Origin: Gemmatimonadota bacterium
Lineage (GTDB): Bacteria; Gemmatimonadota; Gemmatimonadetes; Palauibacterales; Palauibacteraceae
Reading direction: 5' to 3'
DNA length: 64,000 nucleotides
NCBI GenBank assembly: GCA_963666735.1
Contig: OY762926.1
Span: 1,888,001 to 1,952,000, forward strand
The stretch's first letter is position 1. Every line of letters begins with the position of its first letter. A program made the position numbers and the translations under genes. The notes beneath the pieces were generated by a model. The model ran no database searches. It saw only the letters and a program-made list of their open reading frames with translations, and was not told the origin of the DNA. Of this stretch, positions 19,841 to 45,471 are shown in pieces.

Positions 19841-22444
<2,604 letters not shown>

Positions 22445-22458
22445 GCGCAGGCCAGACG

Positions 22459-22497
22459 ACGTGGTGCGCTACGGCTCGATGTCGTAGCGCACCACGT
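22459..22497. repeat. 15-bp inverted repeat at katG / propeller convergence, recurring at cassette junctions
   Basis: ACGTGGTGCGCTACG-9 nt-CGTAGCGCACCACGT; related copies near 25939, 29256/31613, 42151 (half) and 45489. Confidence 0.85.
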
Positions 22498-23656
22498 ACG
22501 GGATGTCGAGCGCGTCCTTCTCCACGACCCAGATCTCGGCTTGGTTCGCAGACTCGACCACCGAGGAGGCGGAGAGCCGGACGCGGCCGATTCCCGCCCC
22601 TGACGCATCCAGGACAAACCACCATCTTTGGCCCTCATCATTGGGGCCGGCGAGCCATGTCGTTCCGTCACTGCCCGCCGTGAGATGCGTCACCGGTGGA
22701 AAATACTGGCGACGTTCGTAGAACTCCCGCAGGGCACCGGCGAAGGCCCGCCGGTCGACGATGCCGCCGCCGCCCGCCGCACCATAGATCTCGTTTTCGA
22801 AGAAGCCACTCGGGATCTGACGCGGCTCGTAGGCAAAGCGGCGATGAAACAACGTGTCGCCCCGAACATCGATTTTCGCGACCTCGAACTCGGCGGGGCC
22901 CCTGCCGAGCCAACTCTTCCGTCTGACGAGTACGGCCCCCGATCCATCGGGCGCGAAGGATATCATGTCGTCGTCCGGAAGCGGATGGGTCACGAAATCC
23001 CATGTGTCGCGCGGTAGTCCAGCCGTAATCTCGGCAGTCTGCCCCGCCACCGACCGCAGCGTCAAGGTGTCAAGCGTGGCGATGTCGGCATCGGAAACAA
23101 CCACCGGCGTCTCCGTGATGCCGCCCCGGGTGAGGCCCACTACGGACAGGACTTCGGATCCCGCCAGGCGACCGTCGGCCAGAACGGCCCTTGGCGCAAT
23201 TCTATCAATGTAATAGGTATCGGGAACGTCGACCCGGTACGGTATCGTCTCGGCCGCGCCGGTCTCCACATCTATTAATGTGAACCGCAAATTTCTGAAA
23301 TCGGCTACCCAGAGCCGCGACTCGTACCAGCCCATCGACGACGGCGAGACGAACTCGCCCGGTCCCTGGCCCCGGCCCCCGAAATCTCGGACGAAGTCAC
23401 CATCGCGCGTGAAGGCCCTGACTACTCCATCCTGAGACAGCAGCACGTACACACGATCCGAGTCCGCCAACACATCACGAACGACGGACAAGCCGTATCT
23501 CGGGTCGTCCGCGCTGCCAATCCCGACAACGCTCGTGAGCGACCACTCACGGATTCCATCGAGCGCTTGTCCAGAAAGTCGAGCGGAGCCACTCGCAACC
23601 GCTGCTGCCCAAAAGAGGACTTGGATTGCGTGCGAACTGCGTCTTTTCATCCGCAC
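22469..23656 (-). CDS. Secreted beta-propeller-like protein (module A1)
   Basis: Signal peptide, NHL-like G-GQGPGEF motif, C-terminal DALDIPYVVRYDIEP; paralogous to 31613 and 33606 genes. Confidence 0.75.
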   Translation of the reverse strand: MRMKRRSSHAIQVLFWAAAVASGSARLSGQALDGIREWSLTSVVGIGSADDPRYGLSVVRDVLADSDRVYVLLSQDGVVRAFTRDGDFVRDFGGRGQGPGEFVSPSSMGWYESRLWVADFRNLRFTLIDVETGAAETIPYRVDVPDTYYIDRIAPRAVLADGRLAGSEVLSVVGLTRGGITETPVVVSDADIATLDTLTLRSVAGQTAEITAGLPRDTWDFVTHPLPDDDMISFAPDGSGAVLVRRKSWLGRGPAEFEVAKIDVRGDTLFHRRFAYEPRQIPSGFFENEIYGAAGGGGIVDRRAFAGALREFYERRQYFPPVTHLTAGSDGTTWLAGPNDEGQRWWFVLDASGAGIGRVRLSASSVVESANQAEIWVVEKDALDIPYVVRYDIEP

Positions 23657-23659
23657 GCC

Positions 23660-24133
23660 TTACAGCCGCAACCGCGAGGTGGCGGCGCGAATCCGGCTCT
23701 CGGCGGCTGGCGAATACCACTTCGAGATGATCCCACCATCGCATGACCGACTGGTTTCCGTCGCGCTCCCCGTTGGTGCTGGAGAACTCACGAAGTACGC
23801 GAACCCAGCCAACAGCGGGACCGCTTGCCTCAGCGCCGCCGAGCCGGGAAGCTCCCCCGACGCTGGCGGAGAAACGCGCCCATCGTGCATGACGAAGAAG
23901 ATGCACAACCCGGAGAGGCGGCAGTACCCGCACCTGGGTGTTGAGCAATGATCGGCGAAACCGATCGGTCCATCCGCGGAGCAGTACATGCACCCGTCCT
24001 CCGCCTTGAAACAGGTCCAGCACGGACCTTCTCCTTCCTGTGCAACTTCCTGTGCGACGGCGGATTCCGTGGCCGCCATGCACGTCAGGATGGCGAGACC
24101 GAGGCCGAACATGAGAAGTCGTGCGCTCTTCAT
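23660..24133 (-). CDS. Secreted 8-Cys protein with conserved C-terminal domain (module A1)
   Basis: Signal peptide ending AVAQ; CWTC..CMYC..CSTPRCGYC..C; VMHDGR; RSCDGGII; ATGA overlap with upstream gene. Confidence 0.8.
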   Translation of the reverse strand: MKSARLLMFGLGLAILTCMAATESAVAQEVAQEGEGPCWTCFKAEDGCMYCSADGPIGFADHCSTPRCGYCRLSGLCIFFVMHDGRVSPPASGELPGSAALRQAVPLLAGFAYFVSSPAPTGSATETSRSCDGGIISKWYSPAAESRIRAATSRLRL

Positions 24134-25215
24134 CGTCCTCCTCCTTTGCTTCCACTCGAGTTTGGGACGGTTTCCCAAGAGTACTTCACGAGTTCGATGC
24201 GGTTCAACGTGCGTATCGCGAGGAGTACGGGGGCGTCCGCAGCGCTGGCAACGAGTCCGAACGGAGCATCGACGGCCGTGTACCTGAGGAAGCGCCCAGC
24301 GGGGTCGAACCAGAGTAAGAGCCGTTGGTCGGTGCCGCGGTGTGCCAGGGTCTGGACGTATCCGGGCCCGACCGCGACAACGGAAGTCGCGCTCCAGATG
24401 CCGGTATCGAAGCGCAAGGAACGGGTGGCATCGTCAGCGAACCAGTCCGCGTCGACTTGCTGCAACGCCAAGGGCACCCACTTCGTGCGGGTGCCGAGGC
24501 GCCATGCCCGGAAGGGGCTGAAGCTCTGCCATACCAGCACCTCATTATCCCCGGATGCCAGCGAGATGGCCCTTGTGTACGTCGAGTCGGGCGTCCAATG
24601 GCCTCGGCTGGCTGGGAGTCGGAGGTTAGGTGGCGAGGAATCGGGGAACGCCAGGAACCACCCGGTCCCGGTTCGCGCCGCCCCGCCGGCATCCCGCACG
24701 GCCGGCAAGCTCCGCCGGGCAATGAGGTTCCCGTCCGTGTCGGCGACGACCAGATCACCGCTTGCGGCGTCGACGATTTCCAGCTTGGCCTCGTCGAGGA
24801 ACCCGACGCCGACTGCTTGTCCGACTTCATCCGGGAGGATGTCCGTCGCGACAGCGCCGCGGTACACGCGAACACCCGGCTCGCCGTGGAACCAGGCGAC
24901 GATCAGTTCCCCCGACGGTGACGGGACCGCTCCCCGTAGCAGTCTCCCCTGCGGTATCGCGACGCTCGCCTGCTCCGTCAACTCGACTGAGGCGTTCGAC
25001 CGCTGAGGAGATGTTGACTGTCCGAATTGCATCGCCGGCGGCATCGGTTCGTTTCGGATCGAATCCGCATAAGATCCGGCGGGATGGGAGAGGAGCAGAA
25101 CGGGAAGCGCAAGGCGGACGCGACCGACCCGGCTGCCCGGCGGGCGTTCCCGGGCATGTCGCCGACAACGGCGAATGTATGAGGCGTTCCAAACTGCGTG
25201 TTCGATTCCCCACAT
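24130..25215 (-). CDS. Putative exported protein/lipoprotein (module A1), start uncertain
   Basis: Clear paralogue of the 36558-39177 gene ([43 protein letters not shown]). Confidence 0.65.
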
Positions 25216-25343
25216 CGAAACTGCTCGTCATGTCAAGAAAAACAAAGCCGACTCGACCCCTCCATCCTACCCCCCCCCCTAAGCCGGCCGTCAACCCCTT
25301 TGACGCCGTGGAAGCCGGCGGCGGGCGAGGCTCGATGGCTCCC

Positions 25344-25922
25344 TGCGCGGCGGCCATTGAACGGGCTGCGCGCGCTGCCGGGCACGACGTGCAGGTGCCG
25401 TTCGCGCCGGGGCGGACGGATGCATCGGAGGAGTGGACGGACGCGGAGTCGTTCGTCGTCCTCGAACCCGTCGCCGACGGGTTCCGCAACTACGCGAAGG
25501 CCGGGAACAACGGCTCGGCGGCCGAGCGTCTCGTGGAGAAGGCATGCCTGCTCACGCTGACCGCGCCCGAGTTGACGGCGCTCGTCGGCGGCATGCGCGT
25601 CCTCGACGCGAACACCGGGCAGTCCGCGCACGGCGTGTTCACGGACCGGCCGGGCGCGCTGACGAACGACTTCTTCGTGAACCTGCTCGACATGAGCACG
25701 GAGTGGCGGGCGGCCTCCGATGGCGCCTTCGAGGGCCGGGACGCGGCCTCCGGCGACGCCAGGTGGACCACCACCGAGGTGGACCTGGTGTTCGGTTCGA
25801 ACTCCGAACTCCGGGCCCTCGCGGAGGTGTACGCGTGCGGCGACGGGCAGGCGGCGTTCGTACGCGACTTCGTGGCGGCCTGGAACAAGGTGATGAACCT
25901 CGACCGGTACGACCTGACCTGA
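25344..25922 (+). pseudogene. katG: katG 3' fragment (copy 2)
   Basis: Highly similar to the katG C-terminal coding region through RYDLT-stop, with several substitutions; no 5' part. Confidence 0.9.
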
Positions 25923-26013
25923 TCGCGGAGCGGACGGCGTGGTGCGCTACGGCTCGATGTCGTAGCGCACCAGGTAGGGGATGTCGAGCACGCGACCTTC
26001 GATCACGAGGACC

Positions 26014-27204
26014 TCAGAGCCCCTCGATATCGAGCGCTACGATGGAGGATTCTTCGAAGCTGCCGGTGTGGAGGGTCCAGACCCTGCGCCCTCTCGCTTC
26101 CAGTAGTCGGTGATCTTCGGGAAGGCGGATCGAGCCGAGGAATTGTCCGGAGGAGAGAAATACGTCATGTATGGCTCCCGGGGCCCCGTGTGGGCCGGAT
26201 GCACCGGGGGCGGGGCGGTCCCGCTGGACCCAGATCCGTCCATCCGCATCGACGAAGATCCGGGAGATGATCGCCGGTTCCGGGGGCTCGCCGATTTCGC
26301 GAAGGGCGGCCTGCCACGCCTCGGGCATTCGCTCATCCGCCTCGCCACCCCGCTCGGCAGGCGAGAGCGGGAGGGCTTCAGCGGGATGACAGAACCGCAC
26401 GCGCATTGTGTCATCCCGGTCGGAGACCGTCAGTTCGTACCGTCCATCCGGGTGCGAGACGACCCAGGTCTCCGCGCCCACTCCCACCAATGACCGTGGC
26501 CATGCGGGCAGGATCGTACGCTCCAGGACTCTGGCGCCGGACCGGGTGACCGTATCGTTCACAGGACTGGCGGGAGACCAGCGGACGAAGGACCGCTCCT
26601 CCCAACCATCCTCGATGGGGCCGGGGAACTCCAGCCATACGGTGTGATCCGGCTGTAGCGCCACGAACGTGACCTCGCCGGATGCGAATACCGGTGACAG
26701 GAACGCCGCATCCACCGCCGTGACGGTGGCCGAGCGAGAATCGAGATCCAGTGTGGTCAGCCGAAACGCCCCGAAGTCCAGCACGAGGAGCGTGTTGGCA
26801 TCTTCCCAGGTCACCGCGGCGGGTGCCTGGACCTCACCGGGGCCTTCACCGCGGGTCATGACCGGCCCCAGCCAATCTCCATCGGGGTTGAGCAGAATGA
26901 CTTCGGCGAGGCCCCAGTCCGCGATGGCCACCGATCCGTCCGGGCTTACGGCGACGTCAGCCGGGAAGATCAGTTCTTCCGCTTCCTCGGAGCCTCCGAC
27001 ACGCCACACTTCACGCCAGGAGAGCTCCGCCGGCCACTCGCCGACGCGCGTGTTCCTTACAACCCGACCATCGGTGTCGGTGACCTCGCACGCGGTGGAT
27101 GCGGGTCGGTCACAAGCGGCGATGGTCGCGGCCAGCAGCAACGTCACAGTCCGGGATCGCAGGGCCATGTGGTGACACTGACCGGCCGACGGGCTCACGG
27201 TCAA
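26014..27204 (-). CDS. Beta-propeller-like lipoprotein
   Basis: Lipobox-like LLLAATIAAC, GEGPGEV, IFVDADGRIWV; overlaps the stop of the upstream propeller gene. Confidence 0.7.
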   Translation of the reverse strand: MTVSPSAGQCHHMALRSRTVTLLLAATIAACDRPASTACEVTDTDGRVVRNTRVGEWPAELSWREVWRVGGSEEAEELIFPADVAVSPDGSVAIADWGLAEVILLNPDGDWLGPVMTRGEGPGEVQAPAAVTWEDANTLLVLDFGAFRLTTLDLDSRSATVTAVDAAFLSPVFASGEVTFVALQPDHTVWLEFPGPIEDGWEERSFVRWSPASPVNDTVTRSGARVLERTILPAWPRSLVGVGAETWVVSHPDGRYELTVSDRDDTMRVRFCHPAEALPLSPAERGGEADERMPEAWQAALREIGEPPEPAIISRIFVDADGRIWVQRDRPAPGASGPHGAPGAIHDVFLSSGQFLGSIRLPEDHRLLEARGRRVWTLHTGSFEESSIVALDIEGL

Positions 27205-28340
27205 CCGGGATCCTCCTCCCGAAAGCTGAGCTTTGCGATGCGCCAGGGCGGGAAACGGGTGTCCTGAAGGACATAAAGATGCCTCCCCCCGCCCAGGACC
27301 CGTGAGTTTTCCGGTAGGGGCACGTCCTCGTACAGTTTGCGGCCGGTGTCACGGTCGTAGATGTCGAGGGAAGCATGATACGCGCCGAAGGCCCCCCCGG
27401 ATCTCGGGGAACGGAAACGGCCGTGTACTACTGCGAGATAGGAACCAACCACAGCGATGTGCGAGATCGTGCTGCGCCCCCCAAGCAACTCTGGTATTTG
27501 GGTGCCGTACCCGCCGGGCCCGAACGCACCGGACTCGAACACGGGAACCGGCTCGAACGTCGGGGGTGGAACACCGAATTCACCGATCGAATCGCCTGTC
27601 GCGTTCAGGATCGCGACAGGATAGCGGAGAGAGAATGCCATGTAGATGGAGTCGCCCGCCACGTCGAACGAGAAGCGTGCGATCGAATTCCAGTAGGGTC
27701 TCTCCGCAGGAAGAAACGGCCACGTGTACGAACTCCACACCACCTCGTTCTCCCTGAGGCGATGCAGCATCAGGGGGCGACGATGGAAACGCGAGAGGTC
27801 GTCAGCCCCACCCGATACGCCGCCGAGTCTCATATCCAACAGGAGGTCGTCGCCGATGGCCTTCGCACGCCAGGGAATCCCGGGTAACGAAACCGTGGTG
27901 TCCGCCAGCAGCTCACCGGTCAACCAAGTCAATCGGGTCTGACGGCTATCGAGCACGGCGACCCGGCCCGAGCCTGTTTCCGCCAAGCCATCGATGCCCT
28001 GGAACTCGAAGGGGCCCACTCCGAATCGTCCGAAAGCTGCCTCGAGCCGACCGTGCTCGTCGTAGCTCCGGACCTTGGGGAGCTGCCCGTCACTCAAGAG
28101 GAAGCCCCTGTTAGCACGCTCCTGAAAAATGCCAGGCACGGCGATCGAGTCCTCCGGACTCTCTTCCAGCACGATGACCGTGTCGGTATCGAACGCAACG
28201 TCCAGTGCGATCCCGGCTAATGGTTCCGCAGGATCGGGCGCGATGTCGCATGCTACAATAGCCAGCACCGTCACGAACGGGGCGGTAGAAACCCGCCACC
28301 GCCGCCGCCTGAGACCCGTCAAGATCCTATTGAATGACAA
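27201..28340 (-). CDS. Beta-propeller-like lipoprotein (module B1)
   Basis: LAIVAC lipobox-like, GRFGVGPFEF; paralogue of 42215-43309; start uncertain. Confidence 0.7.
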   Translation of the reverse strand: MSFNRILTGLRRRRWRVSTAPFVTVLAIVACDIAPDPAEPLAGIALDVAFDTDTVIVLEESPEDSIAVPGIFQERANRGFLLSDGQLPKVRSYDEHGRLEAAFGRFGVGPFEFQGIDGLAETGSGRVAVLDSRQTRLTWLTGELLADTTVSLPGIPWRAKAIGDDLLLDMRLGGVSGGADDLSRFHRRPLMLHRLRENEVVWSSYTWPFLPAERPYWNSIARFSFDVAGDSIYMAFSLRYPVAILNATGDSIGEFGVPPPTFEPVPVFESGAFGPGGYGTQIPELLGGRSTISHIAVVGSYLAVVHGRFRSPRSGGAFGAYHASLDIYDRDTGRKLYEDVPLPENSRVLGGGRHLYVLQDTRFPPWRIAKLSFREEDPG

Positions 28341-28441
28341 TGACGTAGCGCCATCGGACGCACGGTCTTGGATGCGATTCCGAAGGTAAAGAGCACCGCC
28401 AGCACGGTGGCGATACGGGTCAATTGTGCGAACCGGTCCAT
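28319..28441 (-). pseudogene. Core-deleted homologue of the 6-Cys secreted peptide (module B1)
   Basis: MDRFAQLTRIATVLAVLFTFGIASKTVRPMAL matches the leader of 43326-43583; core absent; out-of-frame VIVIQ-stop matches the EIVVR-stop tail. Confidence 0.75.
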
Positions 28442-28453
28442 TTTCTCCCTCCT

Positions 28454-28915
28454 TTAGGGATTCACGAGTTGACTACGAATGAGGCCGGTCGTGAGAGTTC
28501 CACGCAGAACGCCCACCTGAGCCTCGAAGTTCCAACCACAATCGGAGGCGGCGTTTCTGGAATCGGCCATCAATACGACTCCGGTGCGATCGACGAGAAG
28601 CTTCGTGCTCGGGAGAAGTGGCCCGAGGGCGGCCTCCAGGTCTTGTCGCGATGCGGCGGTGAACGTCGTGCCACGCAACGCCCGTCGCGCATCCTGAGAC
28701 ACGTCGTCGTCACCAACCACCACGACATGGCGCTTCAACGCGTATCGTCCCCAAGAGCATTCCATACGGCCGACCTGCCACTCAAGCAGGTTCGGCACCG
28801 TGCGACATCAACGATCCAAACCAGGTGTGCCTCCGCAGGATCCGGTTCTTCGAGTCCGAGCCACGACAGGGACGCCGAGGTGCCGACCAGACGGTCCCGG
28901 ACGTTCGTCCGCCAC
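28454..28915 (-). pseudogene. Frameshifted, 5'-truncated CxxC thioredoxin-like gene (module B1)
   Basis: VRDRLVG...WIVDVARCRTCLSG in one frame, RHVVV...CGWNFEAQVG in another; paralogue of 43608-44204. Confidence 0.8.
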
Positions 28916-28949
28916 CGTGCCTCCACGGGCTCGGCCGGTGCCACCGTCG

Positions 28950-29215
28950 CCAGAATGGCGATGGCGAAGCAACGAACCCGAATGGCGCCTCGACAGCGAC
29001 ATATCGCACGAATCAGCTCTGCTCGTCGAACCAGAGGAGAATGCGGTCGTCAGTGCCGCGATTTGCCAGCGTCCCGACGTAGCCGGATCCGATCGAGACG
29101 ACGGAAGTTACGCTCCAGATCGCCCGACTCGCACGCAAAGCATCGGCGATGTTCCGCCGAACCAGTCGGCCGACACACGCTCGAACTCCAGGGGCACCCA
29201 GTCGCGGCCCGCTTT
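28950..29215 (-). pseudogene. Fragment of module A lipoprotein gene
   Basis: WVPLEFERVSADWF and RYVAVEAPFGFVAS in shifting frames match the C-terminal third of 24130-25215. Confidence 0.65.
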
Positions 29216-29223
29216 CTCCTCAT

Positions 29224-29270
29224 CCGTACCATCTCACCTGATCGCAGGCCAGACGACGTGGTGCGCTAGG
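29224..29270 (+). repeat. Minimal katG tail plus hairpin left arm (copy 3)
   Basis: CCGTACCATCTCACCTGATCGCAGGCCAGACGACGTGGTGCGCTA aligns with 22426-22471. Confidence 0.75.
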
Positions 29271-31611
29271 TGTAGATGCCACGATGGTTGTTCACCGGAT
29301 CGACGAGTAAAATGAGAGTTCCCGTCAGAGAGCTCACACCCTACTCGTCGGAGGATCCGGTGAACGTGCACAAGAATGCGAAGTTTGGAGTTACCCCGAT
29401 TTGGTGGACACCTTTGAGCGTTGGTCACAACGAGGAGGTGTCGCATGTCGGGACGGAGATACGCGCCGGAGTACAAGGCGCGGATGGTGGAACTGGTCCG
29501 TGCGGGACGGAGCGCGGACCGGCTGGCTCGCGAGTTCGAGCCCTCGGCGACGGCGATCCGGCGCTGGGTGGAGCGGGCCGACCTGGACGAGGGGCGTCGC
29601 ACCGACGGTCTGACGACGGTCGAGCGCAAGGAAGTCCGGGAACTGAAGCGCGAGCTTCGCCGGGTGAAGATCGAGCGCGACATATTGGCAAAAGCCACGG
29701 CCTGGTTCGCCAAGGAGAGCGGATCGATCCCCCGGGGGGGTTCCGGTTCGTGAGCGATCACCAGGCCATGTATCCCGTGCGCGTGATGTGCCGCCTGCTG
29801 GGTCTCTCCCCGAGCGGGTACTATGCGTGGCGGACGCGGGAGCCGTCTCGGCGGGCGCGGGAGAACGAGGCGCTCAGTGCGGAGATCGTCGAGATCCACG
29901 CCATGAGCGGGGGGACGTACGGGGCGCCGCGGGTCCATGCGGAACTCAAGGCGCGGGGCCGCGAGGCGGGTGTGGGCCGGGTGGCGCGGCTGATGCGGGC
30001 GGCGGAGATCGAAGGGGTGAGCCGGCGCCGCAAGGGCAGTACGACGAAGCGGGCCGCGAAGTCCAGGCCCGCGCCGGATCTCGTGGACCGAGACTTCTCG
30101 GCCTCCGGACCCGACGAACTCTGGGTGGCCGACATCACGTACGTGCCGACCTGGGCGGGCTTCCTCTATCTGGCCGTCGTGCTCGACGCCTGGAGCCGCC
30201 GCATCGTGGGCTGGTCGATGGCGACGCACCTGAGGACGTCCCTGGTGCTGGATGCCTTCGACATGGCGCTGGCGCAGCGGCGCCCCGACGGGGTGATCCA
30301 CCACAGCGACCAAGGCAGCCAGTACACGTCCTACGCCTTCGGCGGGCGCTGCCGGAGGGCCGGGGTCAGGCCCTCGATGGGCTCGGTGGGCGACGCTTAC
30401 GACAACGCCATGTGCGAGTCGTTCTTCGCCACGCTGGAGTGCGAACTGATCTGGCGGCGCTCGTTCCGGACGCCCGGCGAGGCCCGCCGGGGGGTGTTCC
30501 GGTTCATCGAGGGCTGGTACAACCCGCGCCGGCGGCACTCGAGCCTCGGCTACGAGTCGCCCGCCAGCTTCGAGGCGCGCGAGAAAGGAGAGGCGGCGTG
30601 ACCCCCCGGGCCGCGGCCCTCTCCCGCGAGGTGGCGAGAATGGAGGAAACCACCACTTTCACCTGTCCACTAAAACGGGGTAAGCCCAGTTGACGCCCGC
30701 GGGGCGAGCGGTGCTGGTGAAGCGGGTGCTGGCCGGGGAGCCGGTCGAGGTGGCGACGCGGGAGATGGGGGTGAGCCGCCGGACGGGGTTCAAGTGGCTC
30801 AAGCGGTTCCGGGAGGAGGGAGAGGAAGGGCTTCTGGACCGTAGTTCGAGGCCGCACCATCACCCGCGCCGGATCCCTCGGCAACGGCGCCGCCGGATCG
30901 AGCGGTTGAGGCGGGAGCGCTGGAGCTGTCCGCGGATCGCCGATCAGTTGAACATGCCGGTCTCTACGGTGACGCTGGAGGTGAGGCGGCTGGGTCTGAG
31001 CCGGTTGGAGAAGCTGGCGCCTCCGGAGCCGGTGGTGCGCTACGAACGGTCGCGGCCGGGGTCTCCGGTGCACATGGACATCAAGAAGCTCGCGCGGATC
31101 GTACGGCCCGGACACCGGATCGACGGGGACCGGAGCAAGAGGGTCCGGGGCGCGGGGTGGGAGTACTACCACGCGGCGGTCGACGACGCGTCGCGGGTCG
31201 CCTGCGGAGATGTGCTGCCCGGCGAGCGGAAGGAGGACGCGGTGGCGTTCCTGTTGCGGGTGGTCGCCTTCTTCGGGAGCCAGGGGGTGAAGATCAGCCA
31301 GCTCATGACCGACAACGGGGGCTGCTACCGGTCGAAACGGTTCCGGCGGGTGCTCCGGGAACTCGGGATCAAGCACATCTTCACCCGTCCCTACACGCCC
31401 AGGACCAACGGGAAGGTGGAGCGCTTCATCCGCACCTCGCTCGCGGAGTGGGCCTACGACCGGTCCTATCCCCACTCGCGCGTGCGGACGGAAGTCCTCC
31501 GCATCTGGCTCCGCTACTACTACCTGAGGCGACGACACACCGCCATCGGACGCCTCACACCCATGCAAAGACTCGTCGAGCTAAGGGTCACCAACGTCCT
31601 TGGCATCTACA
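29271..31611 (+). mobile_element. IS481-family element interrupted by an IS3-family element
   Basis: TGTAGATGCCA terminal inverted repeats, 6-bp TSD GCTAGG (29265-29270 / 31612-31617); 1035 bp after removing the nested IS; transposase VNVHKNAK|LTPAGR...HMDIKKL...TDNG...TNGKVERF. Confidence 0.92.
29386..30688 (+). mobile_element. IS3-family element (1303 bp), copy 1
   Basis: TG...CA ends with imperfect IRs, 3-bp TSD GTT; orfA 29445-29753, orfB to 30601 with WVADITY, HHSDQGSQY, DNAMCESFF. Confidence 0.95.
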
Positions 31612-31612
31612 G

Positions 31613-32797
31613 CTAGGGCTCGATGTCGTAGCGCACCACGTACGGGATGTCGAGCGCGTCCTTCTCCACGACCCAGACCTCGGCCCGGTTTGCCGCCGAC
31701 ACGCGCGAGGTCGTGGGAAGCTGCACCCGGCCAATACTCGCTCCTACGGCATCCAGCACGAGCCAGTCGCGCTCGCCGTCTTCGTCCGGCCCAGCCAACC
31801 AGATCGTACCGCGGCTCCCAATGCGAACGGTGGTAACCGGCGGAAAATACCGGCGTTGTTCATAGAATTCGCGGAGGGCCCTAGCATGAGCTCGATGATC
31901 GGTAACGCCCGGCCAATCTAGCTGCTCACGTATCTCGTCAGCAAAAAAACCCTCTGGGACCGGACGAGGCTCGTACTCGACGCGACGTCGAAACAGCGTG
32001 TCACCCAGAACGCCGATTCTCGTCACCTCGAACTCCGCGCGGCCCGAACCCGCCCAACTCCTGCGCTTGACCCAGACCGCGCCGGACCCGTCGGGTGAGA
32101 AGGCTATCAGGTCGTCTTCCGGCAGCGAATGCGTCAGATACACTCCCGCGTCGGGCGCAAGTCCAGCCTTGATCTCGACGGGTCCACCTCCGAGGGAAAG
32201 TAGAGCCAACGTGTCGCGCAGCGAGCCCGTGGGGTCGGAAACGAGCAGCGGCAGGTTCGAGATACCCCCCCGTGCGGTGGCTCGGAGAGCTGAGAAGGTC
32301 CGGGATCCGACCAGTCGACCGTTAGCAAGGATGGCTCTCGGCACGACGCTCAAGAAGTAGTACGACAACGGAGGATCCACGTCATATGGGACCGTCTCGG
32401 CCTCACCGCTCAAAACATCGAAGAGCGTGAAGCGCCTCAAGCTCGGATCAGCGACCCACACCCGCGATCCATGCCAGCCCATTGACGACGGAGTCATCAA
32501 CTCTGCCGGGCCCTCGCCTCGGCTGCCAAGATCACGAACAAACTCCCCGGTCCGTTTAAAGACCCTGACTGTCCCCTCTTGGGCCAGCAACACGTACACG
32601 TAGTCGGTGTCCGTCAGAACGTCGCGCACTTCTGACAAACCGTAGATCGGGTCGTCCGCGCTCCCGATCGAAGCAACCCGTTGAAGGGACCATTCCGGCG
32701 TCTGGCCCAGAATCGGGCCAGACGCCCATTGGATCACGCACGCGAGCACGAGCCCCGGCAGCCCACGGTCGATGAATCCTCTATACGTTTGAAGCAT
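31613..32797 (-). CDS. Secreted beta-propeller-like protein (module A2)
   Basis: IGSADDPIYGLS, GSRGEGPAEL, DALDIPYVVRYDIEP; GGAGG RBS; stop lies in the IS481 TSD. Confidence 0.75.
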   Translation of the reverse strand: MLQTYRGFIDRGLPGLVLACVIQWASGPILGQTPEWSLQRVASIGSADDPIYGLSEVRDVLTDTDYVYVLLAQEGTVRVFKRTGEFVRDLGSRGEGPAELMTPSSMGWHGSRVWVADPSLRRFTLFDVLSGEAETVPYDVDPPLSYYFLSVVPRAILANGRLVGSRTFSALRATARGGISNLPLLVSDPTGSLRDTLALLSLGGGPVEIKAGLAPDAGVYLTHSLPEDDLIAFSPDGSGAVWVKRRSWAGSGRAEFEVTRIGVLGDTLFRRRVEYEPRPVPEGFFADEIREQLDWPGVTDHRAHARALREFYEQRRYFPPVTTVRIGSRGTIWLAGPDEDGERDWLVLDAVGASIGRVQLPTTSRVSAANRAEVWVVEKDALDIPYVVRYDIEP

Positions 32798-32817
32798 TGC
32801 CGTTCCCTCCCTACCGC

Positions 32818-33279
32818 CTACAATTGCAGCTTCGCGGTCTCGCTTCGTATCCCACTCACTTTGGCTGGCGCATACCATTTCGTGACGATCCCTCCATCAC
32901 ACGATCGCTTGATCTCGCTCGCCTGTCGGGGGAACGCGATGGGATTGGCCGATCCGCGCGCCACGCTGGCCGCTTGTGGTTCAGTTGAGGTTGCCTCGAA
33001 CTGTTCCATCGGCACGGCGGGTGCCGCGCGCCCGTCTAGCATCACCGTAACTACACAGCGTGGCCCTCCGACGCGACAGGTAGTGCATCTTGGTGTGGCA
33101 CAGTACTCGGCGCCGAGCCCTTGTTGGCCTGCCACGCAGTGGGCGCACTTATTACCGTTCTCATCAGAAAGTGCACCGTACTGACAATCCCAGCACTGTG
33201 CGCTCACGGGTTCGACCGACACCGCCCCGGCCAAGACGGCAAGACTGAGGCTCAGCATGAGAATTCGTGCGAGTCTCAT
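32818..33279 (-). CDS. Secreted 8-Cys protein (module A2)
   Basis: Signal peptide ending VSAQ; CWDC..CAHC..CATPRCTTC..C; VMLDGR; RSCDGGIV. Confidence 0.8.
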   Translation of the reverse strand: MRLARILMLSLSLAVLAGAVSVEPVSAQCWDCQYGALSDENGNKCAHCVAGQQGLGAEYCATPRCTTCRVGGPRCVVTVMLDGRAAPAVPMEQFEATSTEPQAASVARGSANPIAFPRQASEIKRSCDGGIVTKWYAPAKVSGIRSETAKLQL

Positions 33280-33425
33280 CGTCTCTCTCCTTTGTTTCGG
33301 TTGGAATCTCGGACGCTTGCCCAAGATACTTCACGAGTTCACTGGCATTCGGCGTTCGCATTGCGAGTGCGGCGCGTGCCTCCGTGGCGCTGCCGACAAA
33401 CCCGAAGGGTGCTTCGACCCTGGTG
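33276..33425 (-). pseudogene. 3' remnant of module A lipoprotein gene (A2)
   Basis: TRVEAPFGFVGS...NASELVKY then a frameshift; directly upstream of the 8-Cys gene. Confidence 0.7.
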
Positions 33426-33605
33426 TCCTCAGGTGGAGATGTCCCGCTTTCACGGACGGTTGATTTCTGCGGTTGATCACCTCCGGTTCTGCTCCCTTCG
33501 GTCTCTCTCGGACGCGGGAGAGAGGCTCCGGGTGCGCGCCCGCGGTGCGCCTCGGGGGGACACGCGGAGTGTGGCCACGGGGGAGGGGAAAGCCGACGTG
33601 GCTCC

Positions 33606-34778
33606 TCACCGCACAATTTCGTAGCGCACTAGGTACGGGATGTCGAGTGCATCCGACTCCACCACCCAGCAATCGGTCTTGCCGGCAAATGCCACATGTG
33701 ACGACGCGGGCAGCTGCAATCTTCCAACCGTCGCTCCGGCACCATCGAGGACAAGCCAAATCCGCTCGCCAGCTACTTCCGGTCCCGCCAGCCATGTCGT
33801 TCCGTCGCTTCCCGCCGAGACCCGCGTCACGGGCGGAAAATACTCCCGCATTCGAAAGAACTCGCGCAAAGCCGCTTCGTACGCCCGTCGATTAACGACG
33901 TGAGGGCTGTTCGCGGATTCAGCTATGGTCTCGTCGAAGAAGTCATCCGGCACCCGATGGGGCTCGTAACCAACGCGACGTCGGAAGATCGTGTCACCGC
34001 GAACTTGAACTTTGGTGACCTCGAATTCGGCCGGCTCATCGCCATCCCAACTCGTCCGGTCCACAATCACTGCATGGGAACCGTCCGGCGCTATCGCGAT
34101 CAGCCCGTCCTCCGGAAGTGGGCTGAGTCTGTATTCCATGTTAGATCCAAGGCCATCGGTGATCTCGCCCGTCTGCCGGTCGATCGCAAGTACGGCCAAG
34201 GTGTCGTGTAGGGCCCCATCCGCGTCCGTAACGACGACCACCCGGTCCGTAACGATCCCGCGAGCCTCAGCCCTCGCGGAGAACTGTGGATACCCAGCTA
34301 ACCGTCCGTCATCGAGTACGGCCCGGGGTACCATCCCGCGGACCGTGTATGACTCTTTGACCGGCGCGTGATACGGAACCGTTTCCGCGTCACCCGTCGT
34401 GACATCGAAGAACGTGAACCTCATCAACCGATAATCGGCCACCCACAACCGCGACCCGTGCCAGCCCATCCATGTAGGGTGCAGCAACTCGCCGGGTCCC
34501 CGTCCCTTGCGACCGAGCGCGCGAACGAAGGTACCGTCGCGCGAAAAAACACGGATCTGTCCGTCCTGCGGCTGAAGGACATAAACTTGATTCGCGTCCG
34601 CCAGCACTCCCCCAACCGGTGTGAGCCCGTAGGGGGGGTCGTCAGCGCTCCCGAGCTTTAGGTCGAGCCGCAGAGTCCACTCCGGCACCTGGCCCGCCGC
34701 CGAACCAGACGCGGACAAGGCACCGCAGACCAAAGCGGGCACCAGTATGGACACACGCCACTGGCCAATTCGCAACAT
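33606..34778 (-). CDS. Secreted beta-propeller-like protein (module A3)
   Basis: Signal peptide, LGSADDPPYGL, GRKGRGPGEL, DALDIPYLVRYEIVR. Confidence 0.75.
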   Translation of the reverse strand: MLRIGQWRVSILVPALVCGALSASGSAAGQVPEWTLRLDLKLGSADDPPYGLTPVGGVLADANQVYVLQPQDGQIRVFSRDGTFVRALGRKGRGPGELLHPTWMGWHGSRLWVADYRLMRFTFFDVTTGDAETVPYHAPVKESYTVRGMVPRAVLDDGRLAGYPQFSARAEARGIVTDRVVVVTDADGALHDTLAVLAIDRQTGEITDGLGSNMEYRLSPLPEDGLIAIAPDGSHAVIVDRTSWDGDEPAEFEVTKVQVRGDTIFRRRVGYEPHRVPDDFFDETIAESANSPHVVNRRAYEAALREFFRMREYFPPVTRVSAGSDGTTWLAGPEVAGERIWLVLDGAGATVGRLQLPASSHVAFAGKTDCWVVESDALDIPYLVRYEIVR

Positions 34779-34784
34779 TCCCCC

Positions 34785-36561
34785 CTATAACCGCAGTTGC
34801 GCGGTCGCAGTCCGAACCGCACTCACCTCGTCGGCAGAATACGGCGTCGAGATGATGCCCCCGTCGCACGATCGCCTCGTCTCCGGCCACTCTGGTGTAC
34901 CCGTGGCTCCTCCGTCTATCGCGACCACGAGCGCACCGCTTGCTCCCGCCGACCACTTCGTCGCTGGCGACTCAAGGGGCTCCGGGGGTGAGACTGGGCT
35001 TACCCCGTTTTAGTGGACAGGTGAAAGTGGTGGTTTCCTCCATTCTCGCCACCTCGCGGGAGAGGGCCGCGGCCCGGGGGGTCACGCCGCCTCTCCTTTC
35101 TCGCGCGCCTCGAAGCTGGCGGGCGACTCGTAGCCGAGGCTCGAGTGCCGCCGGCGCGGGTTGTACCAGCCCTCGATGAACCGGAACACCCCCCGGCGGG
35201 CCTCGCCGGGCGTCCGGAACGAGCGCCGCCAGATCAGTTCGCACTCCAGCGTGGCGAAGAACGACTCGCACATGGCGTTGTCGTAAGCGTCGCCCACCGA
35301 GCCCATCGAGGGCCTGACCCCGGCCCTCCGGCAGCGCCCGCCGAAGGCGTAGGACGTGTACTGGCTGCCTTGGTCGCTGTGGTGGATCACCCCGTCGGGG
35401 CGCCGCTGCGCCAGCGCCATGTCGAAGGCATCCAGCACCAGGGACGTCCTCAGGTGCGTCGCCATCGACCAGCCCACGATGCGGCGGCTCCAGGCGTCGA
35501 GCACGACGGCCAGATAGAGGAAGCCCGCCCAGGTCGGCACGTACGTGATGTCGGCCACCCAGAGTTCGTCGGGTCCGGAGGCCGAGAAGTCTCGGTCCAC
35601 GAGATCCGGCGCGGGCCTGGACTTCGCGGCCCGCTTCGTCGTACTGCCCTTGCGGCGCCGGCTCACCCCTTCGATCTCCGCCGCCCGCATCAGCCGCGCC
35701 ACCCGGCCCACACCCGCCTCGCGGCCCCGCGCCTTGAGTTCCGCATGGACCCGCGGCGCCCCGTACGTCCCCCCGCTCATGGCGTGGATCTCGACGATCT
35801 CCGCACTGAGCGCCTCGTTCTCCCGCGCCCGCCGAGACGGCTCCCGCGTCCGCCACGCATAGTACCCGCTCGGGGAGAGACCCAGCAGGCGGCACATCAC
35901 GCGCACGGGATACATGGCCTGGTGATCGCTCACGAACCGGAACCCCCCCGGGGGATCGATCCGCTCTCCTTGGCGAACCAGGCCGTGGCTTTTGCCAATA
36001 TGTCGCGCTCGATCTTCACCCGGCGAAGCTCGCGCTTCAGTTCCCGGACTTCCTTGCGCTCGACCGTCGTCAGACCGTCGGTGCGACGCCCCTCGTCCAG
36101 GTCGGCCCGCTCCACCCAGCGCCGGATCGCCGTCGCCGAGGGCTCGAACTCGCGAGCCAGCCGGTCCGCGCTCCGTCCCGCACGGACCAGTTCCACCATC
36201 CGCGCCTTGTACTCCGGCGCGTATCTCCGTCCCGACATGTGACACCTCCTCGTTGTGACCAACGCTCAAAGGTGTCCACCAAATCGGGGTAACTCCAGAC
36301 ACGTCCGTCGAGCATCACGCCACCCAGTACCTTGCAGAATCCTCCACCCAGGGTGCAGCGCGTGCACTCCGGGGTCGTACATTCGAGAGCTCCGAGTCCC
36401 CAATCGTCCGCTTCGCAGAAAACGCACCTGCGGCCGGGATCGGAGATCGGGCCGGGACCGGGTATGCAGTCCCAGCACTGTGCAACCGCGGGTTCCGCGG
36501 ACGCGATCCCGGCAAGAATGGCAAAGCCGAGGCCCAGCATGAGGATTCGTGTGCGTTTCAT
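34785..36561 (-). pseudogene. Secreted 8-Cys protein (module A3) split by IS3 copy 2
   Basis: N-part CWDC..CVFC..CTTPECTRC..C..VMLDGRV (36561-36298) rejoins in frame with SPPEP...RRSCDGGIIS...TAQLRL-stop (34991-34785). Confidence 0.85.
34995..36297 (-). mobile_element. IS3-family element (1303 bp), copy 2
   Basis: Inverted, near-identical copy of 29386-30688; 3-bp TSD GAC. Confidence 0.95.
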
Positions 36562-39177
36562 CGTCTCTCTCCGTTGCGCCGGATGGAGTCTCGGGCACGT
36601 GCCCACGAGTACTTCACAAGTTCACTGGCATTCAGCGTTCGCACGGCGAGCACGACGGGGGCCGCAGTGCCGCTCGCAACGAGTCCGAAGGGGGCCTCGA
36701 CCTTGGTGTACTTCAGGAATCGGCCATGTGAGTCGAACCGGAGCAGGAGCCGTTCGTCGGTCCCGCGGTGCGCCAGAGTCTGCACGTATTCGGGCCCGAC
36801 GGCGACGACCGAGGTCGAACTCCAGATGCCGGGATCCAGCCGCAATGATTGGGCCACGGCATCGGCGAACCAATCAGGATTGACCCGTTCAAGCTTCTCG
36901 GGCACCCAATCGATGGCGTTCCCGATACGCCACACCCGAAAGGGGCTGGAACCCTGCCACACAAGGGCTTCTCGCCCAGCCCCCCCAAGTGCGACAGTCC
37001 TCGCGTAAGCGGAATCCGGCGTCCAAGTACCGTTGCCCGCTGGCAGTTGCAGGTGGGACGGCATCGAATCGGAACCGGAGATTGCGACGATCCACCCGGT
37101 GGTTGTCCACGCCGCCGCGCTGGCTTCCCGCGATCCCGGTAGGCGGCGCCGAGTATGTGCGACGCCCGCAGTATCGGTGGCGACCACCTCGCCGCTCGCG
37201 GCATCCACGATCTCCAGATCCTTCTCGTTCAGGAACTGAACGCCGATCGCGCGCCCCACGTCGGCAGCGAGGATGTCTCTCGAAGCGGATCCACGGTACA
37301 CGCGAACGCCCGGAGTTCCGGCGAACCAGGCGACGATCAGGTCGCCCGACGGCGAGAGCGCTGCGCCGCTGAGCAGGCGATCTTCCGGGAGAGCGATGGC
37401 GGCTCGCTCGGTGAACTCGATTCCCTCTCTGCCAACACGCGCGAGACACGAGAGGAGCAAGAGATTAGAGTAGGGCGAGACAGAGAGATTGAGGATGGAA
37501 CGAGGAGAAGGAATGAAGGTGAACGGAACGCCCCTCTCTTCAGGGGAGGGCGGGCGAAGCGCGGCGGCTTCCGCGGCGGATCCGGAGGTGTCGGCGAAGG
37601 CGACGCGGCGGCGCTTCACGGCGGCGTACAAGCTGTCGATCGTCGAGGAGGCGGACGCCTGCGAGACGTCGGGCGAGATCGGAGCGTTGCTTCGGCGCGA
37701 GGGATTGTACGGCTCGCACCTGTCGGCGTGGCGGAAAGCGGCGCGGGAGGGATCGCTGCGGGGGCTGGCGAAGAGACGCGGACCGAAGCCCTCGGGCGGG
37801 AAGCGTGAGGCGAGGAGGGTGCGGAAGCTGGAGCGGGAGAACGCGCGGTTGCGCGAGGAACTCCGCAAGGCGCGCATCATCATCGATGTCCAGGGAAAAG
37901 TTGCGGGGCTGCCGGGCGTGAGCCCCGGGGACGGGAAGCGCTCTTGAGCGCGGCCGGAGGCTTGGCCGGGCACGTGGGCGTACGCGCGGCGTGCGAGGCC
38001 CTCGGGGTCGCGCGCGCCACGTTCTACCGTCGCCGGAGGCCGAAGACCGGGCGGCGGCGGCCCCGGCCGGCTCCCGCCCGGGCCCTGGACGCGGCGGAGC
38101 GGGCGGAGGTCTTCGGCGTGCTGTGCTCGCCGCGCTTCGCCGACCGCGCGCCGGCGGAGGTGTACGCGACGCTGCTGGACGAGGGCGTCTATCTGTGTTC
38201 GGAGCGGACGATGTACCGGATCCTGGCCGAGAACCGGGCGGTCCGCGAGCGCCGGGCTCAGCGCAGCCATCCCAACCACCCGAAGCCCGAGGTGGTGGCC
38301 AAGGCACCGAACGAGGTGTGGTCTTGGGACATCGCCCGGCTGCTGGCGCCGGAGAAGTGGCGGTACTTCTATCTGTACGTGATCCTGGACATCTACAGCC
38401 GCTACGTCACCGGATGGATGGTGGCGGAGCGCGAGACCGCAGGCCTGGCCGGACACTTGGTCGGCGAGACGTGTCTCAGGCACGGTGTGCGGCCCCGGGT
38501 CCTCACGCTGCACTCGGATCGGGGATCCCCCATGACGGCCAAGTGCACGGCGCAGCTCCTGGCCGACCTGGGCGTCACGCAGTCGCTGGGCCGCCCCAGG
38601 GTCTCGAACGACAACCCGTACTCGGAGGCGCACTTCAAGACCCTCAAGTATCACCCGGGCTTCCCCGGTCGGTTCGGCTGCATCGAGGAGGCGAAGGACT
38701 TCTGCCGGGAGTTCTTCCAGTGGTACAACACCCAACACCGCCACGGCGGCATCGGCCTGCTCACCCCCGAGCAGGTCCACCTCGGCCGCGCCCCCGAGGT
38801 GATCGAGCAACGGCGGAACGTGCTGGCCGCGGCCTACGCCGCCCGCCCCGACCGCTTCGTCGTCGGCCCGCCGAGGGCTGTGGAACTCCCGGAGGAAGTC
38901 TGGATCAACCGCGCACTCCCCGTCACGCCGGTTGATGGATCGGAGTCGGCCAACGGGAGGAAGGAGGCCTCACTAAACTGAATCGGAAAGTGTCTCACAT
39001 TCGTTGGCAGGTTCCGATTTCCGAGGCCGCCTGTGCCACCGGTTCGACGCTCTCCGCCCCTGCCCGCCGGTCATCGGGGATCCCGTCACGAGCGTGCTGT
39101 ACGTCACCGCATCCCGATGCGAGGGCGCACGCAACGACAGACCACGTGAACAGATTTTGGATCCGGGCTCTGTGCAT
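36558..39177 (-). pseudogene. Module A3 lipoprotein gene split by an IS
   Basis: MHRARIQNLFTWSVVACALASGC lipobox (39177) ...SEIG rejoins IEFTERAAIALP in frame once 37425-39011 and one TTCC are removed; ATGA overlap with the 8-Cys gene. Confidence 0.8.
37425..39011 (+). mobile_element. IS3-family-like element (orfA ~37513-37947, orfB 37944-38981)
   Basis: IRs CTGCCAAC...GAGACAC / GTGTCTC...GTTGGCAG; DDE motifs WSWDI, LHSDRG, NDNPYSE; flanked by TTCC direct repeat. Confidence 0.85.
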
Positions 39178-39280: not shown

Positions 39281-39991
39281 TCAGACTGTGTACTCTTGAT
39301 CAAGAATGACTACTCGGTCCGATTCGGCCGGAAGGATGGGCCGGACATGGTCCGCCGTGAACGCTGCGAAGAGCCGGTCCGTCGTCAGCCGCTCCAGTTC
39401 CCCCGACCGGCGAAGCTCGTATACCCTGAGGACCGAGAGAGCGGCGAGGAACGCGCCCAGCGTCGTGGCCCCGTTCGCTCGCGCTCCGAACTGCTTGAAC
39501 AGCGTGACTGGCGCACAGCCCACGTCCCCGGCCAGTTCCCGCACGTTGCGAACCGGTCGGTCGGCAGCCTGCCGCACCGCATGAACGAGGGCCGCCTGGA
39601 GAGCGGAAGGCAACGACGAGCGCTCGAACGATTTCGCCAAGCTCCACAGACCCCGTGTCGCGCGCGCGGCGTCGAGGCGGGGCCGGAGACCCGTTCGGTA
39701 TTCGGTGAACCAGACCATCGCCGCCACACGCACGCGAAGCAGTTGCCTGGCCAACTGGGGATCGGGATTCGTCACGAGAGCCACCGGCACCCACGGCCGC
39801 TCGCGCTCGAACCTCGCCAACAAGTCGATCTGCGCCGGCCGAACCCGGCCCACGCAAGCGATCACGACCGCCTCGACCTCACGGTCGAAACTGGCGAGCG
39901 CTTCGGTGGCGTCCGCCTCCCGGGCGCCGGGGCCCGCGGCTCGGCATACCTCCCGGGCTGTCTGCGGCGTGTCCGCGACTACAAGGATCAT
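39281..39991 (-). CDS. Receiver-like/AraC-type HTH regulator, copy 1 (30-aa internal deletion)
   Basis: MILVVAD...PWVPVALVT receiver-like pattern; VRELAGDVGCAPVTLFKQF HTH; paralogue of 44302-45093. Confidence 0.6.
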   Translation of the reverse strand: MILVVADTPQTAREVCRAAGPGAREADATEALASFDREVEAVVIACVGRVRPAQIDLLARFERERPWVPVALVTNPDPQLARQLLRVRVAAMVWFTEYRTGLRPRLDAARATRGLWSLAKSFERSSLPSALQAALVHAVRQAADRPVRNVRELAGDVGCAPVTLFKQFGARANGATTLGAFLAALSVLRVYELRRSGELERLTTDRLFAAFTADHVRPILPAESDRVVILDQEYTV

Positions 39992-40795: not shown

Positions 40796-40855
40796 CGGAG
40801 AACGGCCGGTGTGATCCGACCGCAACAGCCGGCGCGACGAAACGTGTTGGTGACG

Positions 40856-42135
<1,280 letters not shown>

Positions 42136-42214
42136 CGGCGAGACAGCCGCCGCGGTGCGTTACGGCACGATGATTTCCGGGAGGCCTCGGATCCGTTCAA
42201 TCGTCACCCTGGCG

Positions 42215-43309: not shown

Positions 43310-43325
43310 GAGAGCGATCACGAGC

Positions 43326-45215: not shown

Positions 45216-45471
<256 letters not shown>

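What the first reader, a model, noticed from the sequence alone, without database searches (positions are those of the whole stretch)
22469..39177. Recurrent three-gene module: lipoprotein + secreted variable 8-Cys protein + beta-propeller (candidate undescribed system)
Seen: three copies (22469-25215, 31613-33425, 33606-39177) share one gene order, with ATGA coupling between the lipoprotein and the Cys protein. Each Cys protein has a signal peptide ending A-Q and an invariant scaffold CWxC-CxxC-CxTPxCxxC-C with variable loops. A conserved C-terminal part follows (VMxDGR ... RSCDGGI ... LxL-stop) carrying a ninth Cys. Each copy has its own diverged propeller downstream. Inference: a disulfide-scaffolded, diversifying secreted effector or signal paired with a cognate receptor, immunity or assembly protein. 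It is architecturally reminiscent of Bacteroidota NVEALA-peptide / 6-bladed propeller loci, but I recognise no known family here.
Basis: partly seen in the sequence, partly recalled or inferred. Interest (0 to 1): 0.85.

Follow-up and report, generated by a model that had tools for sequence, protein, structure and literature searches.

The report
Swappable cysteine mini-protein between two propellers
Many Gemmatimonadota bacteria carry an apparently undescribed three-gene cassette in which a small cysteine-rich protein with a highly variable head and a fixed tail is encoded between two different propeller-shaped proteins; it is likely exported and likely acts as an exchangeable recognition piece, gripped at the head by its own matching propeller and at the tail by a shared one, but neither binding nor function has been tested.

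Summary
The module is real and extends far beyond this window. Order: U (upstream protein), C (Cys protein), P (propeller). C homologues occur in 57 of 401 genomes of the class and 228 protein clusters. None matches a curated Pfam or NCBIfam family or a solved structure. C has a signal peptide, an acidic variable head with an even number of Cys (mostly 6 or 8), and a conserved basic tail whose lone Cys lies exactly 27 residues from the end in 125 of 140 proteins. The head tracks P better than U, one U can head several C-P pairs, and mature C plus P are exchanged together. Positive selection is not shown (dN/dS 0.52). Best reading (0.45): an envelope U-C-P complex with allele-specific C-P recognition. 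Binding is untested. This scan noted the same family before in another genome (e1-5143330). My paper searches found no description.

The parts
24130..25215 (-). U1: upstream six-bladed propeller (predicted); no lipobox; true start uncertain (ATG 25215 or a later codon)
   Evidence: AlphaFold mean pLDDT 88, pTM 0.87; NHL-like fold, Z 19.3; no Pfam hit
23660..24133 (-). C1: signal-peptide-like N-terminus, 8-Cys head, linker, tail with lone Cys; intact
   Evidence: ATGA overlap with U1
22469..23656 (-). P1: DUF5128/NHL-like propeller with Sec-type N-terminus; its 3' end faces the 3' end of katG
   Evidence: (PF17170 21.0 bits, cut-off 22.9)
33276..33424 (-). U2 remnant: 3' end only, frameshifted, about 48 codons
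32818..33279 (-). C2: intact Cys protein; head predicted as a four-stranded beta-meander
   Evidence: pLDDT 88-96 over residues 1-50 of the mature chain
31613..32797 (-). P2: cognate propeller, 81% identical to the P of genome G010
39015..39177 (-). U3 N-terminal piece with lipobox
   Evidence: (P0166 residues 1-75)
37418..39014 (.). Insertion sequence splitting U3 (IS3-like by recalled motifs, not scanned); absent in contigs of X7 and X13
36558..37417 (-). U3 propeller body, 60% identical to U1
36297..36561 (-). C3 signal peptide and 8-Cys head
   Evidence: P0013
34991..36296 (.). Insertion sequence splitting C3, 99.6% identical to 29383-30699; absent in contigs of X7 and X13
34785..34990 (-). 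C3 linker and tail
33606..34778 (-). P3: cognate propeller
   Evidence: (PF17170 23.1 bits, over the cut-off)
39291..40030 (-). Remnant of a putative HTH regulator; a full copy lies at 44302-45105 and upstream of U in several relatives
   Evidence: weak HTH hits for the G026 homologue
28959..29209 (-). Further U remnant from a decayed fourth cassette
25350..26000 (.). Duplicated katG 3' end plus last codons of a P gene: boundary of a tandemly added unit

Best explanation
U, C and P are neighbouring genes conserved across the class, and they likely form an exported three-protein envelope complex in which C would act as an exchangeable specificity piece: its variable, likely disulfide-stapled head is likely bound by the matching propeller P, and its constant tail is likely docked by the shared propeller U. 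Shown: gene order, conservation, the two-part design of C, arrays with one U and several C-P pairs, joint exchange of mature C with P. Predicted: U is a six-bladed propeller; the C head is a four-stranded beta-meander. Inferred: (1) all three go out by Sec, and C is cut before Gln; (2) the even-numbered head Cys form 3-4 disulfides, helped in one subfamily by a MauE/redoxin pair; (3) the tail stays attached as a small docking module whose lone Cys forms an intermolecular or transient disulfide; (4) C-P matching gives allele-specific recognition, most likely self versus non-self among related strains, which would explain why strains collect several foreign alleles at one site.
For: Linkage: 59 of 66 tail-bearing C genes outside this genome have P within 500 bp downstream; 51 of 64 have U within 400 bp upstream. 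Reverse test: 12 of 15 newly found full-length U genes, and 17 of all 30 new U loci, have a C-family gene directly downstream. Cognate P proteins group apart from most of the genome's other propellers (label changes 3 against 32.9 shuffled; tree). One U heads several C-P pairs in L046, L083, L085 and in this window. In 12 close modules head identity follows P (rho 0.78) more than U (0.48), and more than the intervening linker plus tail does (0.66). G002 against G003: synonymous difference 0.14 in U and the signal peptide, 0.61-0.82 in mature C and P, so the swap point lies behind the signal peptide. Tail: lone Cys exactly 27 from the end in 125 of 140, Arg/Tyr/Arg and hydrophobic last and third-last residues conserved, dN/dS 0.27. 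Head Cys number even in 121 of 122; median charge -4, so not a cationic antimicrobial type. No family other than U, C and propellers recurred in more than 4 of 20 extended loci.
Against: No interaction was computed or measured. The tail-U link is not phylogenetically independent: 44 of 45 strict-motif tails have U nearby, but so do 12 of 24 without the strict motif, and the independent-pairs test gave median p 1. The U and P profiles were built from these neighbourhoods, so one search is partly circular, and propellers are common (95 hits in this genome). 13 of 30 new U loci lack an adjacent C. The correlations rest on non-independent pairs, and physical linkage alone can carry C and P together; over 33 distant modules head-P correlation is weak (rho 0.19). 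The tail is modelled with only low to moderate confidence (pLDDT 57-76). Four other propellers of this genome fall inside the P branch without a C gene. No evidence bears directly on kin recognition.
Confidence: 0.45

Rival explanations
1. C is a precursor: the tail is a follower sequence read by U as a maturation or export factor and then removed, the released disulfide-rich head is an antibacterial effector, and P is its cognate immunity protein.
For: Effector-then-partner order, exchange behind a constant N-terminus, collection of foreign alleles at one site, acidic head with basic tail. P3 stays intact where C3 is broken.
Against: No peptidase or exporter family recurs in the 20 extended loci (minor families not all annotated). 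No conserved cleavage motif was seen between head and tail apart from DG, which the model places at a hairpin turn. Only 1 of 122 heads has charge +2 or more. dN/dS stays below 1.
Confidence: 0.25
2. The module handles or senses thiols or metals in the envelope: the head Cys bind a metal or cycle redox state, and the lone tail Cys relays it to a propeller.
For: CxxC pairs in the head; invariant lone Cys; MauE plus redoxin beside 4 of 20 extended loci; location next to katG in 6 other genomes of the genus.
Against: Even Cys counts of 4, 6, 8 or 10 with variable spacing fit added disulfides. A sensor would not need allele-specific exchange with P. katG was not a neighbour in the distant loci.
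Confidence: 0.1
3. The proteins are host-interaction factors of a sponge symbiont (NHL-type eukaryotic-like proteins with a secreted effector aimed at the host).
For: The DNA is held by sponge metagenome runs. NHL repeats are reported as enriched in sponge symbionts (PMC5524777, passages). U is NHL-like in fold.
Against: The same cassette occurs in 7 of 10 sampled families of the class, whose habitats I could not read from the coded handles; the phylum is widespread outside sponges (PMC10469786, passages).
Confidence: 0.08
4. U, C and P form an enzyme of the methylamine dehydrogenase kind: a small disulfide-rich cofactor subunit on a propeller.
For: Small Cys-rich protein plus propeller, with MauE and a MauD-like redoxin in one subfamily.
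Against: Tat-like motif in 0 of 121; 50 of 121 mature proteins have fewer than two Trp; head non-Cys identity is 13% at the median; no structural match to a solved small subunit stood out, which is inconclusive.
Confidence: 0.05

Closest known systems
Bacteroidota NVEALA proteins (PF14055) beside DUF5128 (PF17170) / TolB-like (PF15869) propellers (neighbourhood recalled, not tested)
   Same: Small exported Cys-rich protein next to a six-bladed propeller; P1-P3 match PF17170 weakly over about 45 residues.
   Different: 0 of 139 C members match PF14055; the conserved part of C is a C-terminal tail, not an N-terminal motif; a second dedicated propeller U with no Pfam family.
Polymorphic toxin / cognate immunity cassettes (general features recalled)
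   Same: Variable gene followed by a cognate partner, exchanged together behind a constant N-terminus; several alleles per strain.
   Different: No recognisable toxin domain; the variable part is a 45-residue disulfide-type head; the partner is a conserved 390-residue propeller; the constant part is C-terminal.
Methylamine dehydrogenase (MauA/MauB with MauD/MauE; features recalled)
   Same: Small disulfide-rich subunit, propeller, MauE and a redoxin in 4 of 20 loci.
   Different: No Tat motif, no invariant Trp pair, hypervariable head, two six-bladed propellers; MauD model 28 bits against a cut-off of 189.
Six-bladed propellers that bind Cys-rich modules in animals (nidogen-laminin 1NPE, LRP6-DKK1 peptide 3SOQ, LDL receptor)
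   Same: Fold class of U (Z 15-17); propeller as receptor for a small disulfide-rich module (binding mode recalled). This is what it may work like.
   Different: 6-12% identity, no homology claimed; bacterial operon with exchangeable cognate pairs.
Streptomyces umbrella toxin particles (bioRxiv 10.1101/2025.04.24.650519, passages read)
   Same: Secreted multi-protein system with diversified propellers that give specificity.
   Different: There the propellers are lectin domains fused to a trypsin-like domain and target cell-surface polymers; no Cys-rich mini-protein partner ('disulfide' occurs 0 times in the main text).

Membership tests
NVEALA protein (PF14055) | Match to the PF14055 profile / NVEALA motif | tested here: not met
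   0 of 139 members at E 0.01; no such motif in the alignment
DUF5128 six-bladed propeller (PF17170), for P | Score at or above the gathering cut-off 22.9 | tested here: inconclusive
   P3 23.1, P1 21.0, P2 18.1 bits, each over about 45 residues; three distant P homologues 15.9-18.0
NHL-repeat propeller (PF01436), for U | Six-bladed propeller fold | tested here: met
   Predicted model, best Z 19.3, rmsd 4.4, 251 aligned, 7% identity
NHL-repeat propeller (PF01436), for U | Sequence match to the NHL profile | tested here: not met
   No NHL hit for U1, U3 or three distant U proteins; Atlas feature score 0.91 is weak at recognition 2205
Methylamine dehydrogenase small subunit (MauA) | Tat signal peptide (recalled) | tested here: not met
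   0 of 121 with a Tat-like motif by regular expression
Methylamine dehydrogenase small subunit (MauA) | Two invariant Trp for the TTQ cofactor (recalled) | tested here: not met
   11 of 121 have no Trp and 39 have one in the mature chain
Methylamine dehydrogenase small subunit (MauA) | MauD/MauE and MauG in the cluster | tested here: inconclusive
   MauE over the cut-off and a redoxin in a subfamily, 4 of 20 loci; neighbours not all scanned for MauG
Polymorphic toxin / immunity pair | Variable gene and downstream cognate gene exchanged together behind a constant region | tested here: met
   one clear breakpoint pair (G002/G003), few modules
Polymorphic toxin / immunity pair | Toxic activity neutralised by the cognate partner | not testable with these tools
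   needs an assay
Class II bacteriocin / defensin-like peptide | Cationic mature peptide (recalled) | tested here: not met
   median head charge -4; 1 of 122 at +2 or more
RiPP with follower peptide | Conserved modifying enzyme or dedicated protease in the cluster | tested here: inconclusive
   none recurs in 20 extended loci, but U or P could be an unrecognised enzyme
RiPP with follower peptide | Proteolytic removal of the follower | not testable with these tools
   needs proteomics

The most novel reading that the evidence does not exclude
A class-wide bacterial ligand-receptor code built from genetically exchangeable disulfide-rich mini-domains and cognate six-bladed propellers, with a shared second propeller that reads a fixed 27-residue C-terminal docking signal: a bacterial counterpart of animal propeller/Cys-module recognition, used for strain-level self/non-self discrimination, and a natural library of hundreds of small disulfide scaffolds with matched binders.
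Probability: 0.25. Interest if true: 0.85.

Novelty: categorically new. Interest (0 to 1): 0.63.

Why it matters
Gemmatimonadota genomes hold dozens of unexplained propeller genes (95 profile hits in this 4.0 Mb genome). This cassette ties one branch of them to a large family of small Cys-rich proteins with no curated family (228 clusters at 50% identity). If C-P matching is allele-specific, it offers a testable mechanism for strain recognition or antagonism in an abundant, mostly uncultured phylum. The fixed-length C-terminal motif would be a new sorting or docking signal. All three proteins are small enough to express and test in a laboratory host.

Tried and rejected
Complex prediction (U1 with C1) was not available, so no interface was modelled. 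Fold searches with the C model gave no match (Foldseek best E 3.5; none of 48,161 chains at Z 2 or more); this shows neither a new fold nor a different one. The Atlas gave no usable hit for C2. PDB sequence search with the 139-member profile gave only two peroxidase hits at E 0.06 and 0.9, taken as chance. No RNA holder was listed among the sequencing runs. Run X13 has no cover over 22828-24819, which is not taken as absence of copy 1. The PF14055 search of the own genome rang nowhere, controls included. No plasmid match for C2. The search for related loci could not use either alignment, so no organism names were obtained for the distant genomes and the range outside the phylum is unknown; cluster look-up of 10 of the 150 listed representatives gave only 'hypothetical protein' or no name. 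Rejected: diversifying selection as shown (dN/dS below 1); tail-U co-occurrence as independent evidence; recent local triplication (each copy is closer to copies in other genomes); assembly artefact; U and P as close paralogues (hhalign probability 0.2). Dropped rows: 10 long proteins among the 150 representatives (9 repeat proteins matching a short stretch, 1 U-C fusion); 2 incomplete and 3 near-identical modules of 38; 2 of 17 pairs with high synonymous difference from the pooled dN/dS. The 'Cys3C' query was in the wrong frame and was not used.
Full report
SETTING. The window is C1:1888001-1952000 of a single-contig 3.98 Mb genome. A close homologue of C2 is named from Candidatus Palauibacter, and near-identical DNA is held by sponge metagenome runs. 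I call the three genes U (upstream), C (Cys protein) and P (downstream propeller).

OBSERVATION. Three C genes lie on the minus strand, each with an ATGA overlap upstream and a propeller downstream. The 8-Cys pattern occurs three times in the window, nowhere else in the genome, and in 0 of 30 shuffled windows. Only copy 1 looks complete. Copy 2 has intact C2 and P2 but only a frameshifted U remnant. In copy 3, U3 and C3 are each split by an insertion. Contigs from two other studies (X7, X13, of 4 runs laid) join across both sites, and P0013 is an uninterrupted C3 allele, so these insertions are strain-specific. The copies are not recent local duplicates: P proteins are 53-60% identical, while P2 is 81% identical to a P in G010 and U3 84% to a U in G026. 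The stretch between katG and the nucleoside phosphorylase gene is built of tandem units bounded by repeated 3' ends of both genes at 93-96% identity. The katG 3' end also lies beside the module in six other genomes of the genus. I infer additive uptake of allelic cassettes at one site.

THE C FAMILY. C2 alone found 11 of 61 related genomes. A 35-member profile found 57 of 401 genomes in 7 of 10 families of the class (includes this genome and one unpublished genome, G529, on which no other claim rests; only 9 candidates per genome were scored). A 15-member profile found 228 clusters at 50% identity. Of the 150 listed, 140 are short proteins; the last Cys lies exactly 27 residues from the end in 125 and 27-30 from the end in 136. 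The profile favours tail-bearing hits but does not fix where the stop codon falls. 122 of 136 have a small-residue-Gln site at 14-45, read as the signal peptidase site (regular expression, no SignalP). Head Cys number is even in 121 of 122 (6 in 63, 8 in 54). The head is acidic (median -4) and the tail basic (+3). AlphaFold models the head as a four-stranded beta-meander at pLDDT 88-96, the linker as disordered, and the tail as short strands plus a helix at 57-76. No member of 139 reaches a curated Pfam family (two single weak hits), C1, C2 and one distant member match no NCBIfam family (one chance-level hit, E 0.38), and the profile finds no solved relative.

U AND P. U has no Pfam match. Its model is a six-bladed propeller (pLDDT 88, pTM 0.87), closest to NHL domains (Z 19.3, rmsd 4.4, 251 aligned, 7% identity). 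Its conserved Trp, Asp, Arg, Glu and Tyr residues cluster in the last two blades; that they line a top-face pocket is my inference from strand order. P matches DUF5128 weakly and NHL domains by sequence over about 55 residues; P was not folded. U and P do not align. Lipobox-like motifs were found in 4 of 49 U and 9 of 49 P, so most are likely soluble exported proteins. In a FastTree tree the cognate P proteins group apart from most of the genome's 47 other propellers (branch support 0.89, not starred), with four partner-less propellers of this genome inside.

LINKAGE. Outside this genome, 59 of 66 tail-bearing C hits have P directly downstream, 51 of 64 have U directly upstream and 59 of 64 have U within 6 kb. 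C relatives with another tail keep P (24 of 27) but mostly lack U (3 of 28 upstream, 7 within 6 kb) (halves of broken genes are counted separately, and the U and P profiles came from such neighbourhoods). Searching with U instead (53 of 401 genomes), 17 of 30 new loci and 12 of 15 with full-length U had a C-family gene directly downstream. Against a simple reading: the U-less group is largely one clade, 12 of 24 tails without the strict motif still have U, and independent pairs give no signal. Arrays with one U and several C-P pairs occur in L046, L083 and L085. In 20 extended loci no other family recurred in more than 4; MauE plus a redoxin accompanies one subfamily.

EVOLUTION. Pooled over 15 of 17 close pairs, dN/dS is 0.52 for the head (shared Cys left out), 0.57 linker, 0.27 tail, 0.30 P, 0.29 U. 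The head is permissive, but positive selection is not shown. G002 and G003 share U and the signal peptide (synonymous difference 0.14) but not mature C or P (0.61-0.82); G026 and G010 show the reverse (U 0.64, P 0.22). In 12 close modules head identity follows P (rho 0.78) more than U (0.48), and more than the linker plus tail that lie between them (0.66). P varies most in a few segments of its middle blades. The pairs are not independent, and across 33 distant modules the signal is weak.

MECHANISM. The most economical reading is a U-C-P envelope complex in which C is the exchangeable piece: P is a cognate binder of the head, inherited and swapped with it, and U is a shared reader of the constant tail. 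I put this at 0.45, with allele-specific self/non-self recognition as the likely role. The main rival (0.25) is a follower-bearing precursor of an antibacterial peptide with P as immunity. It shares the C-P pairing but needs a cut and toxicity, and no recurring protease or exporter supports it. My first reading was that precursor model; an earlier scan note (e1-5143330) argued for an uncut subunit, and the tail model, the fixed tail length and the neighbourhoods fit that better. No interface could be modelled, so binding stays open.

NOVELTY. Paper searches found no description: NVEALA (0 papers), DUF5128 (0), six-bladed propeller with Gemmatimonad (1 unrelated listing), Gemmatimonadota with cysteine-rich, propeller and signal peptide (1 unrelated listing), follower peptide with propeller (0), and (listings and abstract starts only). 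In PMC10469786, which describes the order, 'propeller', 'cysteine', 'secreted' and 'bacteriocin' occur 0 times in the main text (passages); its supplements were not read and may list these genes. Passages of PMC5524777 and of the umbrella toxin preprint were read for comparison. The library lacks most subscription papers. This scan has noted the same family once and tail-less sister modules several times in other genomes; these notes are leads, not support.

VERDICT. A real, class-wide, apparently undescribed cassette with a clear internal division of labour and no tested function. Interest 0.63.

Noticed in passing
window 42215-44204 (-), broken copy 27201-28977: Sister module: a CxxC-bearing membrane protein, an 85-residue six-Cys secreted-type peptide without the tail, and a propeller lipoprotein; none has a Pfam hit.
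   Followed up: partly
G000:C1 353667, 2262016, 2416910, 2420538, 2430844, 2889406, 2901716, 2901983, 2944106, 3873180: Ten further small 5-9 Cys secreted-type ORFs lie just upstream of propeller genes in this genome, one with a DsbA-like gene between; four more lie away from a detected propeller.
   Followed up: partly
window 21699-22481, 25350-26000, 40855-42172, 45216-46180: Tandem units bounded by duplicated 3' ends of katG and the nucleoside phosphorylase gene, 93-96% identical, suggesting additive uptake of allelic cassettes; no integrase gene other than IS transposases was noticed nearby.
   Followed up: partly
window 44302-45105 and 39291-40030; L059:6927-7724: A putative HTH regulator family sits upstream of the cassettes in this genus; another HTH-like family flanks them in family f3.
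   Followed up: no
L043, L044, L046, L062: A subfamily of the module carries MauE (over the Pfam cut-off) plus a MauD-like redoxin and a further propeller.
   Followed up: partly
L102, L105, L107, L108, L110 and others (family f6): A related C type with a different tail after the R-x-C-D motif, paired with its own P clade and without U.
   Followed up: partly
L015 (P0019) and L016: Deletion-fused remnants: U joined in frame to the second half of C, and a regulator joined to a C tail.
   Followed up: no
window 40367-40795 (+): 142-residue protein with an N-terminal hydrophobic segment and a short coiled-coil repeat; weak CCDC90-like hit.
   Followed up: no
window 29383-30699, 30690-31616, 34991-36296, 37418-39014: Four insertion sequences cluster in the array; contig joints show three of them absent in other samples, and an X13 contig runs from 29264 to 31612 without the first two.
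   Followed up: partly
window 26014-27168 and 56582-57781 (-): Two more propeller genes of other branches, without a C gene.
   Followed up: no
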